Shown here: positions 40,464 through 42,858 of the stretch, piece by piece
Layout of the letters: each line of letters begins with the position of its first letter
How positions within the stretch are numbered: position 1 is the first letter of the stretch
Virus record (IMG/VR): IMGVR_UViG_3300025944_000008
Length of the DNA stretch: 64,000 nt
Direction: 5' to 3' (one strand)
Source of the DNA: a virus
Lineage: Duplodnaviria > Heunggongvirae > Uroviricota > Caudoviricetes
Made by a program: the position numbers and the translations under genes
The notes under the pieces: model-generated
What the model saw: the letters and a program-made list of their open reading frames with translations, nothing else
Told to the model about the DNA's origin: nothing
Databases searched by the model: none

Positions 40464-41888
40464 ATGAAACTCAACTCACAAGCCTTCGGCACTTTCTCCT
40501 TCCCGACTGACTACGACGTCGAGAAGACGGCAACACTCAACAAGACGGACCTGACTGGTGGGAACAACAAGTACTACCAGATCGAGGCGCACGTCTCGAA
40601 AGACAAGAAGAAGTATCGGCTCTACTCCCGCTACGGACGCGTTGGCCACTCCGGCACCGAAGAAGAGCGCATCCCGCCTCAGGACCTGAACTCGCTGCTG
40701 GCTGCCTTCGAAAGCCTCAAGGCTGAGAAGACCGGCTCGAGGAAGGGCTACGTCGAGGTGCAGATGGCTTCGACCAAGATGGGCTCTTCGGTAAACAATC
40801 AGCGCATCCTCTCGGACGACATCAAGAAGGACAAGCTCAAGTCGGACGACGGCAAGGATGCGCCGAAGGACAACATCTCGCCGCACATAGCGAAACTGGT
40901 GAACCGCCTGTTCGAGGAGGCAGGGCAGGCGGTTCGTAGTTCTCTCTCTGGCTCGCTGCAAACCACGGCGGAGAATCCCCTCGGCACTCTGACCCTGACG
41001 CAAATCAATCAGGGGAAGAACGTACTGCAGGAGATTCAGGATCTGCTGACGAAGAAGCCCAAGCTCATCGACAGCATCAACTCCGACGTGCTCCTGCTCT
41101 CGAACAAGCTCTACTCCGCGATCCCGCAGGTCATGGAGCACCGCCCGAAGAAGTCCGACGGCGACAAGGCGATGGACGAGTGGCTGAAGAAGATGGCCCT
41201 CAACAACGCCGACAAGCTGGACAAGCAGACGGAGCTCCTCGATCTGCTCGCGGACGTCCAGGGCATGGTGGGAGGCTTCGCCACCACCGACGTGGCCAAA
41301 AAGCACAAGGAGATCGGCTGCGAGTATACGCTCGTCGACGAGAAGGACGACTCCTTCCGCAAGGTCAAGGAGTACTACTCCTCGAGCCACTCTCGCCACC
41401 ACGGCTGGAAGAGCAACATGGTCCGACTGTGGCGCGTTTCCGTGAAGGGCCAGAAAGACAAGCACGTCCCGTTCATGAAGGACGTAGGCAACATCAAGCC
41501 GCTATTCCACGGCTCGGGGCCGCAGAACATCCTGGGCATCTGCAAGCACGGCTTGCTCATGCGCCCTCCAGGTGTCTATGTCACCGGATCGATGTTCGGC
41601 AACGGCCTCTACTTCGCTGACCAGAGCTCCAAAAGCGAGCAGTACGCGTTCGGACGCTATGGCGGCGGCAGCGGTCGTGGTGATACGTTCTTCATGTTCG
41701 TGGCTGACGTCGCCCTCGGAAAGATCAGGAAGTACCAAACGCCGCAGTCGCATCTTCAGGAGCCACCGAAGGGGTATCATTCGGTGCAGGGCGAGGCCGG
41801 CAGCAGTCTCGTCCACAACGAATTCATCGTCTACAACCTGAAGCAACACATGCTGCAATACCTCATCGAATTCACAACGAGGTACTAA
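40464..41888 (+). CDS. poly(ADP-ribose) polymerase: WGR + helical + PARP catalytic domain
   Basis: N-term YSRYGRVG (WGR); catalytic FHGSG...GNGLYFADQSSKSEQYA...NEFIVYN = H-Y-E triad aligned to PARP1 HGS/YFA/YNEYIVY. Confidence 0.8.
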   Translation: MKLNSQAFGTFSFPTDYDVEKTATLNKTDLTGGNNKYYQIEAHVSKDKKKYRLYSRYGRVGHSGTEEERIPPQDLNSLLAAFESLKAEKTGSRKGYVEVQMASTKMGSSVNNQRILSDDIKKDKLKSDDGKDAPKDNISPHIAKLVNRLFEEAGQAVRSSLSGSLQTTAENPLGTLTLTQINQGKNVLQEIQDLLTKKPKLIDSINSDVLLLSNKLYSAIPQVMEHRPKKSDGDKAMDEWLKKMALNNADKLDKQTELLDLLADVQGMVGGFATTDVAKKHKEIGCEYTLVDEKDDSFRKVKEYYSSSHSRHHGWKSNMVRLWRVSVKGQKDKHVPFMKDVGNIKPLFHGSGPQNILGICKHGLLMRPPGVYVTGSMFGNGLYFADQSSKSEQYAFGRYGGGSGRGDTFFMFVADVALGKIRKYQTPQSHLQEPPKGYHSVQGEAGSSLVHNEFIVYNLKQHMLQYLIEFTTRY

Positions 41889-41889
41889 C

Positions 41890-42309
41890 ATGAGGCTCTT
41901 TCACATTGGCAAGGACGGAGGCCCGTACTCGACGGTGACGGGCTACTGGCTGATTGAGCTGAAGAGGCTCTTCAGCATCGCGCTCCTGAAGTTCGAGAAT
42001 GGAAGCCGCGATGAGTACCACTCGCACGCTTTCAATAGCATCTCGTGGGTGCTGAGCGGGCGACTCGAGGAGCGACTACACGAAGATCCATACAAGGTCC
42101 CCAAGTTCTATCTACCGAGCTTTCGGCCCATCCTCACGAAACGGACCACGTTCCACCGCGTCGAGAGTGAGGGGACAACTTGGGTCTTCACCCTTCGTGG
42201 GCCCTGGGCGAAGCAGTGGGCCGAGTACAACCCCTTCAAGGGCAAGTACGCCGTCCTCTCGCACGGTCGCCGCGTCGTCGAGGAATTCGAGCGGCTGGTG
42301 TGGCAGTGA
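41890..42309 (+). CDS. hypothetical protein (cupin-like?)
   Basis: 139 aa. Confidence 0.45.
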   Translation: MRLFHIGKDGGPYSTVTGYWLIELKRLFSIALLKFENGSRDEYHSHAFNSISWVLSGRLEERLHEDPYKVPKFYLPSFRPILTKRTTFHRVESEGTTWVFTLRGPWAKQWAEYNPFKGKYAVLSHGRRVVEEFERLVWQ

Positions 42310-42485
42310 AGATCTACGCACTAGATCCGAAGCTCAGCCACCAGAACAATCCGAACTGCCCGATGCGCCTCATGAGAGACGCAAATGGTGTTTGGTACTG
42401 CGCTGACTGCCGCCTCCGCATTATGGAGAGGTCATTCGAAGTGCAGATCGTCCAGGAGGGGGTTCGTGAAAACTGGACCGGATAA
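42306..42485 (+). CDS. small zinc-ribbon protein
   Basis: GTG overlapping upstream stop; CPMRL...CADC. Confidence 0.4.
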   Translation: MKIYALDPKLSHQNNPNCPMRLMRDANGVWYCADCRLRIMERSFEVQIVQEGVRENWTG

Positions 42486-42858
42486 GGTCTTCAAGTCTGC
42501 CCCGGGACACGTGTTCGTCTTCGGGTCCAATACGGCCGGCATACACGGCGCCGGCGCAGCTCGGACGGCTTACGACCTCTACGGCGCCCAGTACGGTCAG
42601 GGAGAAGGCCTGCAAGGAGAGAGCTACGCCATTCCAACGAAGAACATGGACTTGAAGACACTGCCGCTTCATGTCATCGAGCAGCACGTCGAGAAGTTCC
42701 TCGAGTTCGCGTGGGAGAACCCGAAGCTCAACTTCTTCGTCACCAAGATCGGCTGCGGGCTCGCCGGATATACCGAGGAGCAGGTCGCACCGATGTTCCG
42801 AGAAGCTCCAATCAATTGCATTCTCCCGCACGGTTGGAGAGGAGAGGAGGTTCCATGA
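42466..42858 (+). CDS. macro-domain/SLOG-like Rossmann protein (candidate ADP-ribose or nucleotide N-glycosidase)
   Basis: VFVFGSNTAGIHGAGAA and KIGCGLAGYTEE resemble macro (NAAN..GGGV / ISTGVYGYP) and LOG/DNPH1 (GGyGTxEE, GYElG) signatures; ggaggggg RBS before GTG. Confidence 0.35.
   Translation: MKTGPDKVFKSAPGHVFVFGSNTAGIHGAGAARTAYDLYGAQYGQGEGLQGESYAIPTKNMDLKTLPLHVIEQHVEKFLEFAWENPKLNFFVTKIGCGLAGYTEEQVAPMFREAPINCILPHGWRGEEVP

What the first reader, a model, noticed from the sequence alone, without database searches (positions are those of the whole stretch)
40464..42858. PARP writer with candidate eraser/reader (macro/SLOG-like) and zinc-ribbon partners
The PARP catalytic Glu (NEFIVYN) predicts poly- or mono-ADP-ribosylation capacity. 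Two genes downstream, a 130-aa Rossmann protein (42466-42858) carries macro-like and LOG/DNPH1-like motifs. A NUDIX hydrolase lies at 56919. Together these could form an ADP-ribosylation cycle, used either to modify host proteins or as a counter-defense.
Basis: partly seen in the sequence, partly recalled or inferred. Interest (0 to 1): 0.7.

Follow-up and report, generated by a model that had tools for sequence, protein, structure and literature searches.

The report
Jumbo-phage PARP with DarG-like macrodomain eraser
An uncultured giant phage encodes, in one tightly packed operon, a PARP1/2-like ADP-ribose "writer" and a small DarG/TARG1-type macrodomain "eraser"; each kind of enzyme is already known in phages, but this conserved pairing has not, as far as I could find, been described.

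Summary
The observation mostly holds. ORF 40464-41888 is a full WGR + helical-regulatory + catalytic PARP. Its H349-Y383-E453 triad is invariant in 119 phage homologues. ORF 42466-42858 is not SLOG/LOG. It belongs to the NCBIfam A1S_2505 family and folds (pLDDT 93) as a macrodomain closest to DarG, TARG1 and SCO6735, keeping the Asn, the catalytic-position Lys and the Gly-rich loop.

Both genes lie in an overlapping gene string: rIIA-rIIB-p90-PARP-cupin-small Cys/His ORF-macro-wHTH-p74-hairpin. In 8 of 10 distinct clade loci (PARP at least 59% identical; one phage sampled twice), the macro lies within 1.5 kb downstream of PARP. It is sometimes duplicated, or joined by NADAR or a YpsA-SLOG gene.

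Against coupling: the macro family occurs in 462 cultured phages, against only 16 records with any PARP hit. Three cultured-phage PARP loci and 20 bacterial PARP loci have no such macro nearby. An anti-DarT role (like PhiKZ AdfM) is therefore a near-equal rival. The NUDIX gene at 56919 is generic, 14 kb away, and not supported as a partner. The zinc-ribbon call is weak.

In passing: a full-length Major Vault Protein homologue lies 6.8 kb upstream. An unrelated 462-kb phage also carries MVP, PARP and a Macro gene within 12 kb.

The parts
36931..39012 (+). rIIA-like protein (693 aa); conserved upstream flank of the module
   Evidence: phrog_612 RIIA, E 2.6e-95. Homologues lie upstream of PARP in L004-L007, L011 and L013.
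39025..40164 (+). rIIB-like protein (379 aa)
   Evidence: phrog_609 RIIB, E 2.1e-60. Conserved upstream of PARP in the same loci.
40188..40460 (+). 90-aa protein of unknown function, directly upstream of PARP (3-nt gap)
   Evidence: No Pfam, PHROG or NCBIfam hit. Gene-like codon-position GC. In sister phages this slot holds YpsA-SLOG or other small genes.
40464..41888 (+). PARP (474 aa). Domains: WGR, res 23-100 (40530-40763); helical regulatory domain, res 139-266 (40878-41261); ART catalytic domain, res 297-464 (41352-41855). Triad codons: H349 at 41508-41510, Y383 at 41610-41612, E453 at 41820-41822.
   Evidence: Pfam PARP 2.4e-33, WGR 1.3e-14, PARP_reg 7.8e-11. Human PARP1 E 1.8e-34, with the H/Y/E motifs aligned. 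The triad is invariant in 119 homologues.
41890..42309 (+). Small single-domain cupin (139 aa) with invariant H44, H46, E61 and H89. Clade-restricted; specific activity unknown.
42300..42485 (+). Probably a real gene, lineage-specific.
   Evidence: Codon-position GC 0.56/0.37/0.73, like neighbouring genes. Only sub-threshold zinc-ribbon similarity. No homologue in related loci.
42466..42858 (+). A1S_2505-family macrodomain (130 aa), ALC1-like (DarG/TARG1/SCO6735) class. N22 codon at 42529-42531; K59 (PTK) at 42640-42642; GCGLAG loop at 42751-42768.
42855..43619 (+). 254-aa protein (ATG overlaps the macro stop as ATGA) with weak winged-helix-like N-terminal similarity. The most constant downstream neighbour of PARP.
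   Evidence: Weak GntR, FUR and phrog_2440 hits. Homologues follow PARP, or PARP-macro, in L001-L007, L011, L013-L016 and L018.
43616..43840 (+). 74-aa protein of unknown function; last gene of the string (GTGA overlap)
   Evidence: Gene-like codon-position GC. No family hit.
43844..43868 (+). Terminator-like GC-rich hairpin ending in a U-rich stretch (probable operon end)
   Evidence: RNA fold -20.1 kcal/mol, z -3.4. Sequence shown. Not listed by the consensus terminator scan.

Best explanation
The finding lies in the accessory part of a long co-directional gene string of an uncultured jumbo phage. The genome is at least 210 kb, and the window holds 43 tRNA genes plus a tmRNA. The gene order is rIIA-rIIB-p90-PARP-cupin-small Cys/His ORF-macro-wHTH-p74-hairpin.

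Shown:
- The PARP has the PARP1/2/3 layout without zinc fingers: a WGR nucleic-acid-break sensor, an autoinhibitory helical domain, and an H-Y-E ART domain.
- The 130-aa protein is an ALC1-like macrodomain. It keeps the DarG-type Lys, the conserved Asn and the Gly-rich phosphate loop.
- The genes overlap or are 1-3 nt apart.
- PARP-macro linkage is kept across a clade of related phages, despite local rearrangements.

Inferred mechanism: during infection, nicks or ends in DNA (possibly RNA) bind the WGR domain and unlock the helical domain. The enzyme then uses NAD+ to attach ADP-ribose, mono or poly, to itself, to nearby proteins or to nucleic-acid termini. The co-expressed macrodomain removes ADP-ribose again, so the mark stays transient and phage DNA stays replicable. 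The same hydrolase chemistry would also strip ADP-ribose laid on phage DNA by host DarT-type enzymes. NADAR, a second macro copy and a YpsA-SLOG occupy the same slots around PARP in sister phages, which marks this as an ADP-ribose-centred module.

The NUDIX gene and the zinc-ribbon ORF are not part of the module.
For: Writer:
- Pfam PARP, WGR and PARP_reg are all above their gathering cut-offs.
- The alignment to human PARP1 is collinear, with H862, Y896 and E988 equivalents present.
- H349, Y383 and E453 are invariant in 119 homologues of 59-100% identity.

Eraser:
- NCBIfam A1S_2505, 157.7 bits.
- High-confidence model.
- Foldseek top hits are DarTG, TARG1, DarG and SCO6735.
- The profile alignment puts the invariant PTK Lys on the FPTK of DarG and on TARG1 residues 73-133, and puts GCGLAG on GCGLGG/GCGLAGG.
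- hhalign to PhiKZ AdfM aligns GSN with TVN (N23 is the catalytic-site Asn mutated in PMC13309987), PTK with PTK, and GCGLAG with GCANGG.
- Lys80/Lys84, the conserved Asn and the conserved Gly define the active class (PMC9411070).

Co-transcription:
- 1-3-nt gaps or overlaps, with RBS-like purine runs upstream.
- Hairpin after p74.

Linkage:
- An A1S_2505 macro lies 0-1.5 kb downstream of PARP in the window, L003 (two copies), L004, L005, L006, L007 (two copies), L011 and L013. That is 8 of 10 distinct loci with PARP at least 59% identical.
- NADAR is inserted between PARP and the macro in L006 and L007.
- YpsA-SLOG lies within two genes upstream of PARP (directly adjacent in L005, L006 and L013) in L003, L005, L006, L007 and L013.
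- 14 longest-contig lengths are shared between the PARP and macro homologue lists, including contigs of 3.3-8.2 kb.
- An unrelated huge phage (LR756500.1) carries a PARP and a classical Macro gene within 12 kb.
Against: - The macro family is far broader than the PARP family: more than 2435 homologues against 317.
- The macro family occurs in 462 cultured phage records, mostly N4-like. Only 16 records in the whole collection have any PARP hit. The family-level function therefore does not need a phage PARP.
- Three cultured-phage PARP loci (RAS14, Xoo-sp13, FBKp34) have no A1S_2505 macro within 8 kb. Their immediate neighbours have no Pfam Macro, NADAR or SLOG hit.
- Twenty bacterial PARP loci have no A1S_2505 macro, NADAR or YpsA within 10 kb.
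- Clade loci L001/L002 and L018, and the 44-48% identity group (L012, L014-L017), lack the macro near PARP.
- Conserved order among related phages can be plain vertical descent in a variable accessory hotspot.
- DarG2-type macrodomains are described as acting on DNA-thymine ADP-ribose, not protein ADP-ribose (PMC13309987).
- The TARG1 catalytic Asp is absent here (GCGLAG).
- No enzymatic activity has been tested.
Confidence: 0.4

Rival explanations
1. The macro is a stand-alone counter-defence enzyme, an 'orphan antitoxin' like PhiKZ AdfM. It strips ADP-ribose that host DarT2-type toxins put on phage ssDNA. The NADAR in sister phages does the same against DarT1, like T4 AdfN. PARP is merely a neighbour in an accessory or anti-defence hotspot between rIIB and the wHTH gene, and has a separate role.
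For: - AdfM is a DarG2-like phage macrodomain shown to remove DarT2 marks and rescue phage (PMC13309987). The window protein shares its Asn, PTK and Gly-loop motifs. Its best structural match is DarG.
- Phage NADARs are proven anti-DarT1 factors (PMC11825919). NADAR and the macro sit side by side in L006 and L007.
- The family occurs in 462 cultured phages, against only 16 records with any PARP hit.
- PARPs elsewhere lack adjacent macros.
- Gene content between rIIB and the wHTH gene varies, as in a hotspot.
Against: - PARP is the constant member of the slot. The ADP-ribose-related genes (macro in one or two copies, NADAR, YpsA) cluster immediately around it rather than elsewhere.
- The macro is translationally coupled into the PARP operon.
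- Similarity to AdfM is remote (hhalign probability 22%, E 9.5e-4).
- The host, and whether it carries DarTG, is unknown.
Confidence: 0.35
2. PARP and the macro act as a toxin/antitoxin-like or superinfection-exclusion pair, analogous to DarT-DarG, ART-ARG or SirTM-Macro. PARP fires on incoming or broken DNA ends and ADP-ribosylates them, or drains NAD+. The macro protects the resident phage.
For: - ART-hydrolase gene pairs in phages have been interpreted this way (PMC9503650).
- The WGR domain senses nucleic-acid breaks (established knowledge of the PARP1-3 family).
- Writer and eraser are tightly adjacent.
Against: - There is no evidence of lysogeny, or of toxicity.
- Several clade members keep PARP without the macro. 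That is unexpected if PARP were toxic without its antidote.
- The operon sits with early or middle accessory genes of a large phage with no lysogeny genes found in the ORFs scanned.
Confidence: 0.08
3. The PARP works with the phage Major Vault Protein homologue (30828-33623). This would be a phage counterpart of the eukaryotic vault with vPARP, with the macro, NADAR and SLOG proteins handling the ADP-ribose products.
For: - The MVP homologue is full-length and collinear with rat and human MVP.
- MVP and PARP lie 6.8 kb apart on the same strand in the window.
- MVP and PARP lie 6.2 kb apart on the same strand in LR756500.1, an unrelated 462-kb phage with 24% GC. That phage also has a Macro gene two genes from MVP.
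- Only 3 of 50,697 phage records have this MVP and only 16 have a PARP, yet one record has both.
- ADP-ribose binds the MVP shoulder in human vaults (preprint 10.64898/2026.05.01.722283).
Against: - The phage PARP ends right after the ART domain, so it has no MVP-interaction (MINT) domain.
- Most clade members have no MVP within 10 kb of PARP.
- Two other phage MVP loci have no PARP nearby (L039, L041).
- The intervening genes are unrelated between the two phages.
- A spacing of 6-7 kb is proximity, not adjacency.
Confidence: 0.12
4. The 130-aa protein is a SLOG/LOG/DNPH1-type nucleotide-processing Rossmann protein.
For: The protein has a Gly-rich alpha/beta core.
Against: - There is no YpsA, LOG or Nuc_deoxyrib_tr hit in Pfam.
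- Genuine YpsA-SLOG proteins of sister phages find nothing in the window.
Confidence: 0.01

Closest known systems
Human PARP1/PARP2/PARP3 (WGR-HD-ART DNA-break-activated PARPs) and bacterial WGR-PARPs
   Same: - Same three-domain core and H-Y-E triad.
- Best solved match is PARP1 WGR-CAT (E 1.8e-34).
- The short N-terminus is like PARP2/3.
- Bacterial chromosomal homologues (Armatimonadota, Bacillus, Syntrophomonas) are 26-34% identical.
   Different: - No zinc fingers or BRCT domain.
- The loop before the catalytic Glu is much shorter than in PARP1.
- 'YGR' replaces 'WGR'.
- It is encoded by a phage and embedded in an rIIA/rIIB accessory operon.
- Activity, targets and activator are untested.
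PARPs annotated in cultured phages (Xanthomonas Xoo-sp13 and XacN1, Stenotrophomonas RAS14 and CM1, Cellulophaga phi4:1, Klebsiella FBKp34), as noted in PMC7824862 and PMC9503650
   Same: These are phage-encoded PARP-family ARTs, some with WGR and PARP_reg domains.
   Different: - Below 30% identity over full-length alignments, reaching 36-37% only on catalytic-domain fragments.
- No adjacent A1S_2505 macro, and no Pfam Macro, NADAR or SLOG in the neighbours scanned.
- The window's clade is known only from metagenomes (groundwater, soil).
DarG / DarTG2 antitoxin macrodomain, and phage AdfM (PhiKZ gp104)
   Same: - Shared Asn, PTK-Lys and Gly-loop motifs.
- DarG-like pattern: Lys present, TARG1 Asp absent.
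- Small stand-alone phage protein, like AdfM.
   Different: - About 17-24% identity.
- A different sequence family (A1S_2505).
- No DarT-binding C-terminal domain.
- It sits next to a PARP rather than a DarT, and rather than as an isolated gene.
TARG1/OARD1 and SCO6735 (ALC1-like macrodomain hydrolases)
   Same: - Same class by fold.
- TARG1 residues 73-133 align to profile positions 55-115, including the catalytic Lys position.
- SCO6735 shares RIGCGLAG.
- Both enzymes reverse thymidine-linked and protein-linked ADP-ribose (PMC9411070).
   Different: - The TARG1 Asp125 equivalent is Ala.
- SCO6735 has Gln at the Lys position, whereas this protein keeps Lys.
Writer-eraser gene pairs: DarT-DarG, SirTM-Macro, ART-ARG (DraT-DraG-like), PARP-PARG
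   Same: An ADP-ribosyltransferase gene is co-transcribed with an ADP-ribosyl hydrolase gene.
   Different: - The writer is a WGR-regulated PARP.
- The eraser is a DarG-class macro, not PARG.
- The pairing is seen only in one phage clade.

Membership tests
PARP / ARTD (H-Y-E clade, PARP1-3-like) | ART catalytic domain matching the family model above its curated threshold | tested here: met
   PF00644, 115.8 bits against a cut-off of 26.7, E 2.4e-33.
PARP / ARTD (H-Y-E clade, PARP1-3-like) | NAD+-binding His and Tyr plus catalytic Glu (H-Y-E) | tested here: met
   H349, Y383 and E453 align with PARP1 H862, Y896 and E988. They are invariant in 119 homologues.
PARP / ARTD (H-Y-E clade, PARP1-3-like) | WGR domain and helical regulatory (HD) domain N-terminal to the ART domain | tested here: met
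   WGR 54.4 bits against 22; PARP_reg 42.6 bits against 26.8.
PARP / ARTD (H-Y-E clade, PARP1-3-like) | NAD+-dependent mono- or poly-ADP-ribosylation, stimulated by nucleic-acid breaks | not testable with these tools
   Needs enzyme assays. H-Y-E is found in both poly (PARP1/2) and mono (PARP3/4) enzymes, so sequence cannot decide.
Macrodomain, ALC1-like class (TARG1 / DarG / SCO6735) | Macro alpha/beta/alpha fold | tested here: met
   [not shown]
Macrodomain, ALC1-like class (TARG1 / DarG / SCO6735) | Nearest neighbours are ALC1-like members rather than MacroD or PARG | tested here: met
   The Foldseek top 12 are 2fg1/2afc (Bt_1257), 7omu, TARG1, Taq and Mtb DarG, and SCO6735. MacroD and PARG score lower.
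Macrodomain, ALC1-like class (TARG1 / DarG / SCO6735) | Catalytic Lys at the DarG K80 / TARG1 K84 position | tested here: met
   The invariant K59 in PTK aligns with FPTK of T. africanus DarG, with TARG1 residues 73-133 and with PTK of AdfM. These sequence alignments are individually weak (E 0.9-1.4; hhalign 9.5e-4) but mutually consistent.
Macrodomain, ALC1-like class (TARG1 / DarG / SCO6735) | TARG1-type Lys/Asp dyad (Asp125) | tested here: not met
   The loop reads GCGLAG, with Ala where TARG1 has Asp. The pattern is therefore DarG-like, not TARG1-like (PMC9411070).
Macrodomain, ALC1-like class (TARG1 / DarG / SCO6735) | Conserved Asn and Gly of the ADP-ribose site | tested here: met
   N22 and G96/G98/G101 are invariant in 57 sequences. 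N22 aligns with AdfM N23.
Macrodomain, ALC1-like class (TARG1 / DarG / SCO6735) | ADP-ribose binding and hydrolysis | not testable with these tools
   Needs biochemical assays.
NCBIfam NF049995, A1S_2505 family phage non-structural protein | Score above the curated cut-off | tested here: met
   157.7 bits against a cut-off of 45, E 1e-46. Also phrog_2072, E 5.8e-46.
AdfM (anti-DarT2 factor macro) | Removes DarT2-made ADP-ribose from ssDNA and rescues phage or cells from DarT2 | not testable with these tools
   Only remote homology to PhiKZ gp104 (hhalign E 9.5e-4, probability 22%).
SLOG / LOG / DNPH1 | SLOG Rossmannoid fold, or a match to the family models | tested here: not met
   [not shown]
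ADP-ribose pyrophosphatase (NUDIX) as the third step of a cycle | Match to an ADPRase-specific model, and linkage to the module | tested here: not met
   Generic NUDIX only (PF00293, E 2.2e-13). All NCBIfam models fall far below their cut-offs. The gene is 14 kb away, beyond a minus-strand tRNA array. It is not found next to PARP in sister loci; only L005 has a NUDIX gene, about 7 kb upstream of PARP.
Vault particle (MVP + vPARP/PARP4 + TEP1 + vRNA) | MVP homologue with repeats, shoulder and cap-helix | tested here: met
   ORF 30828-33623: MVP_shoulder E 1.4e-23. Collinear alignment to MVP chains, E 3e-16.
Vault particle (MVP + vPARP/PARP4 + TEP1 + vRNA) | PARP carrying an MVP-interaction (MINT) domain | tested here: not met
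   The phage PARP ends 10 residues after the ART domain and has no extra C-terminal domain.

The most novel reading that the evidence does not exclude
Giant phages encode a vault-like system: an MVP shell protein together with a PARP and ADP-ribose-processing enzymes (macro, NADAR, SLOG). The MVP-PARP partnership and its NAD+/ADP-ribose chemistry would then exist outside eukaryotes, and could be studied in a phage.

Two unrelated lineages place MVP and PARP 6-7 kb apart on the same strand: this 59%-GC phage, and the 24%-GC, 462-kb phage LR756500.1. The only report of phage MVPs that I found saw no vPARP.
Probability: 0.12. Interest if true: 0.85.

Novelty: new variant of a known kind. Interest (0 to 1): 0.55.

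Why it matters
- Phage PARPs have been annotated for years without a known function.
- A conserved operon joins a break-sensing PARP to a DarG-class hydrolase, with NADAR and SLOG variants in sister phages. This gives a concrete, testable writer-eraser model.
- It gives a natural system in which to ask what PARP signalling does in a bacterial cell.
- It bears on the prokaryotic or viral origin of eukaryotic PARP signalling.
- It adds a very large, mostly unannotated phage macrodomain family (A1S_2505) to the list of candidate anti-DarT or ADP-ribose-erasing counter-defence enzymes.
- The MVP-PARP co-occurrence, if real, touches the long-standing question of vault function.

Tried and rejected
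- Megablast of 40000-43700 against cultured phages found no match.
- A single-protein scan of IMG/VR for PARP found nothing. The alignment-based scan worked.
- Sequence searches of the macro against PDB and Pfam found nothing significant. The structure was needed.
- The profile against PDB gave only weak but consistent macro hits.
- SLOG/LOG reading of the 130-aa protein: rejected by the fold search.
- NUDIX as a cycle member: rejected as unsupported.
- Zinc ribbon: only sub-threshold similarity, and not conserved.
- The wHTH partner has no PDB or Pfam match.
- Independent support for PARP-macro coupling was sought in bacterial PARP loci (20 loci) and cultured-phage PARP loci (3 loci). None was found.
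- YpsA and NADAR homologues were sought in the window. None was found.
- The consensus terminator scan did not list the hairpin after p74. It was confirmed by folding instead.
- The p181 protein next to MVP in LR756500.1 looked SLOG-like by eye (SGGAKGAD) but has no Pfam support.

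
Full report
**Context.** The window has about 59% GC. It carries 43 tRNA genes and a tmRNA, rIIA- and rIIB-like genes and ThyX. It also carries two ATP-dependent ligases, one fused to a LigD-type phosphoesterase. The exact PARP, cupin and macro proteins occur on a 210,361-bp metagenomic contig. This is an uncultured jumbo phage. It has no nucleotide-level relative among 50,697 phage records.

**The PARP.**
- ORF 40464-41888 (474 aa) matches Pfam WGR (res 23-100), PARP_reg (139-266) and PARP catalytic (297-464). All three are above their gathering thresholds.
- Against the PDB, its best hits are human PARP1 WGR-CAT constructs (E 1.8e-34), then PARP2, PARP4 and PARP3.
- In that alignment, LFHGS, GNGLYFAD/SKSEQY and HNEFIVY sit on PARP1 LWHGS (H862), GKGIYFAD/SKSANY (Y896, Y907) and YNEYIVY (E988).
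- The loop preceding the Glu is about 20 residues shorter than in PARP1.
- In an alignment of 119 phage homologues (59-100% identity), H349, Y383 and E453 are invariant.
- H-Y-E occurs in both poly- and mono-transferases, so chain length cannot be called from sequence.

**The 130-aa protein: gene and family.**
- The start is GTG at 42466, 7 nt after AGGAGG.
- Pfam and a single-sequence PDB search give nothing.
- NCBIfam places it in NF049995, 'A1S_2505 family phage non-structural protein' (157.7 bits against a cut-off of 45). PHROGs places it in phrog_2072, of unknown function.
- There are more than 2435 homologues.
- A 57-sequence alignment shows invariant FVFGSN..G.HG.G.A, PTK and GCGLAG.

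**The 130-aa protein: fold and motifs.**
- The AlphaFold2 model is confident (pLDDT 93.2).
- Foldseek: the best hits are Bt_1257 (2fg1), Thermosipho DarTG, TARG1, Taq and Mtb DarG, and SCO6735.
- These are the ALC1-like class, whose unifying activity is reversal of thymidine-linked ADP-ribosylation (PMC9411070).
- Profile-to-PDB alignments put the invariant PTK Lys on FPTK of DarG and within TARG1 residues 73-133. They put GCGLAG on GCGLGG (DarG) and RIGCGLAGG (SCO6735).
- hhalign against PhiKZ gp104 (AdfM) aligns GSN with TVN, PTK with PTK, and GCGLAG with GCANGG (E 9.5e-4). N23 in TVN is the residue whose mutation lowers AdfM activity.
- The TARG1 Asp is replaced by Ala, so the pattern is DarG-like.
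- No SLOG, LOG or DNPH1 structure appears in the hit lists.

**Operon anatomy.** The genes from rIIA to p74 are co-directional.
- p90 to PARP: 3-nt gap.
- PARP to cupin: 1-nt gap.
- Cupin to the small Cys/His ORF: overlapping.
- Small ORF to macro: 20-nt overlap.
- Macro to the wHTH gene: ATGA overlap.
- wHTH gene to p74: GTGA overlap.
- All of these ORFs have gene-like codon-position GC.
- A GC-rich hairpin (-20.1 kcal/mol, z -3.4) follows p74. The consensus scan did not list it.

**The genes in between.**
- The cupin (41890-42309) is confirmed as a small RmlC-like cupin with an invariant HxH...E...H set. No specific activity can be assigned.
- Its family (346 homologues) is about as large as the PARP family (317). 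It shares 18 longest-contig lengths with the PARP list and 9 with the macro list, some below 2.1 kb.
- The small Cys/His ORF is probably real, but it is lineage-specific and only weakly zinc-ribbon-like.

**Is the PARP-macro pairing conserved?** I fetched 7 loci by exact PARP homologues and 8 IMG/VR loci with a PARP alignment. I screened them with HMMs built here. Ten distinct loci have PARP at least 59% identical (L001 and L002 are the same phage).
- The macro lies 0-1.5 kb downstream of PARP in the window, L003, L004, L005, L006, L007, L011 and L013. It is present in two tandem copies in L003 and L007.
- The macro is absent near PARP in L001/L002 and L018.
- NADAR (Pfam E 1.1e-27) lies between PARP and the macro in L006 and L007.
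- YpsA-SLOG (E 1.7e-15) lies just upstream of PARP in L003, L005, L006, L007 and L013.
- The cupin is downstream in the window and L004, and upstream in L003 and L006.
- A homologue of the 254-aa wHTH protein follows in almost every locus.
- The more distant PARPs (44-48% identity: L012, L014-L017) have no A1S_2505 macro nearby.
- The window itself has no YpsA or NADAR.

**Is the pairing seen outside the clade?** No.
- The macro family occurs in 462 cultured phage records, mostly N4-like podophages. It is sometimes already annotated 'macro domain' or 'ADP-ribosylglycohydrolase'. Only 16 records have any PARP hit, all below 60% identity (below 30% for the full-length alignments).
- RAS14, Xoo-sp13 and FBKp34 have no recognisable ADP-ribose hydrolase next to PARP.
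- Twenty bacterial PARP loci (Armatimonadota, Bacillus, Syntrophomonas, Aneurinibacillus; 26-34% identity) have no A1S_2505 macro, NADAR or YpsA within 10 kb. The Pfam-scanned neighbours are unrelated genes.
- The family-level role of this macro is therefore PARP-independent. The linkage in the clade could be vertical descent within an accessory hotspot.

**Literature.**
- Phage PARPs have been noted without functional study (PMC7824862; PMC9503650).
- Phage NADARs (AdfN) neutralise DarT1 (PMC11825919).
- A DarG2-like phage macrodomain (AdfM, PhiKZ gp104) neutralises DarT2 (PMC13309987).
- In what I read, I found no description of a PARP-macro operon in phages.

**Verdict on mechanism.**
- Shown: both enzyme identities, their catalytic motifs, their co-transcription, and clade-level linkage together with other ADP-ribose-processing genes.
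- Inferred: that the macro removes what the PARP writes.
- I rate the writer-eraser module slightly ahead (0.40) of the pure anti-DarT reading (0.35). The two are not exclusive.
- A nucleic-acid-break trigger is suggested by the WGR and helical domains, and by the repair-type neighbours of PARPs in several loci:
  - RtcB, RNA and DNA ligases and RlaP in L001.
  - RNA ligase and an HD-kinase in LR756500.1.
  - LigD-like genes in the window, L004 and L005.
- The NUDIX gene (56919-57551) is a generic Nudix protein. It lies 14 kb away across a minus-strand tRNA array and is not linked in sister phages.

**Seen in passing: MVP.**
- ORF 30828-33623 is a full-length Major Vault Protein homologue.
- Only three INPHARED records have a relative. 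One of them, the 462-kb, 24%-GC phage LR756500.1, is also one of the 16 records with a PARP hit.
- In that phage, MVP and an H-Y-E PARP lie 6.2 kb apart on one strand. A Pfam Macro gene sits two genes beyond MVP.
- A 2023 preprint on the first phage MVPs found no vPARP.
- A 2026 preprint reports ADP-ribose bound at the MVP shoulder.
- Against a link: the phage PARP has no MINT domain, most clade members lack MVP near PARP, and two other phage MVP loci lack PARP nearby.

Noticed in passing
window 30828-33623 (+): A full-length Major Vault Protein homologue (931 aa). MVP_shoulder E 1.4e-23, collinear with rat and human MVP, and no PHROG family. It lies 6.8 kb upstream of the PARP on the same strand. 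Fragmented MVP ORFs also lie upstream of PARP in sister locus L004.
   Followed up: partly
L040 (LR756500.1 10000-42000): PARP 19598-20872(-), MVP 10905-13388(-), Macro 8930-9709(-): An unrelated 462-kb, 24%-GC huge phage carries an H-Y-E PARP, an MVP homologue and a Pfam Macro protein within 12 kb. It is the only one of 50,697 phage records with both MVP and PARP hits. The 735-kb phage LR756501 has MVP with a NADAR 6.6 kb away (L041).
   Followed up: partly
L037 11349-12146 and L040 18195-19091: An R2K/D123-type ATP-grasp gene lies directly downstream of a bacterial plasmid PARP (Aneurinibacillus). Another lies three genes from the PARP of huge phage LR756500.1. This is a recurring PARP neighbour in unrelated contexts.
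   Followed up: no
window 42855-43619 (+): A 254-aa protein with a weak winged-helix-like N-terminus and a conserved C-terminal region (FSAHD.TK.LR..V). It is the most constant downstream neighbour of PARP across the clade, even where the macro is absent. It has no Pfam or PDB match. It may be a PARP partner or target.
   Followed up: partly
window 44117-53460 (-) and 19640-20000 (+): 43 tRNA genes, nearly all in one minus-strand array covering most anticodon families, plus a tmRNA gene with tag ANDNVRVQSNLSAPLQAAA. A PTH2 peptidyl-tRNA hydrolase gene (44614-44949, -) sits at the edge of the array.
   Followed up: no
window 27553-28920 (+): An adenylosuccinate-synthetase-like gene matching phrog_1211, '2-aminooxy adenylosuccinate synthetase' (PurZ/PurA-like), E 2e-66. 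Adenylsucc_synt genes are also conserved in L003, L006 and L007. This may indicate a 2-aminoadenine (Z-base) pathway.
   Followed up: no
window 28917-30350 (-) and 8439-9932 (+): A LigD-type 3'-phosphoesterase fused to an ATP-dependent ligase, and a second NHEJ-type ligase. LigD_N genes also lie near PARP in L004 and L005. This is an end-repair theme around a break-sensing PARP.
   Followed up: partly
window 35837-36922 (+): A 361-aa protein with an N-terminal RanBP2-type zinc finger (Pfam E 1.5e-5, just below cut-off), a mostly eukaryotic domain. It lies between ThyX and rIIA.
   Followed up: no
window 22844-23644, 25249-26322, 61637-62305(-), 33724-34263: Other accessory genes: a papain-family cysteine protease, a DnaJ-domain protein, a HAD_SAK_2 (RNA-repair 'Swiss army knife') domain protein, and a SpoU-type RNA methylase.
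   Followed up: no
L012 6722-8149 and L014 8791-9351: In the more distant PARP loci (44-48% identity), a NAMPT-like ORF and a cytidylyltransferase-like ORF (possible NMNAT) lie just upstream of PARP. This would suggest NAD+ salvage next to the NAD+ consumer. Both were judged by eye from the sequence only.
   Followed up: no
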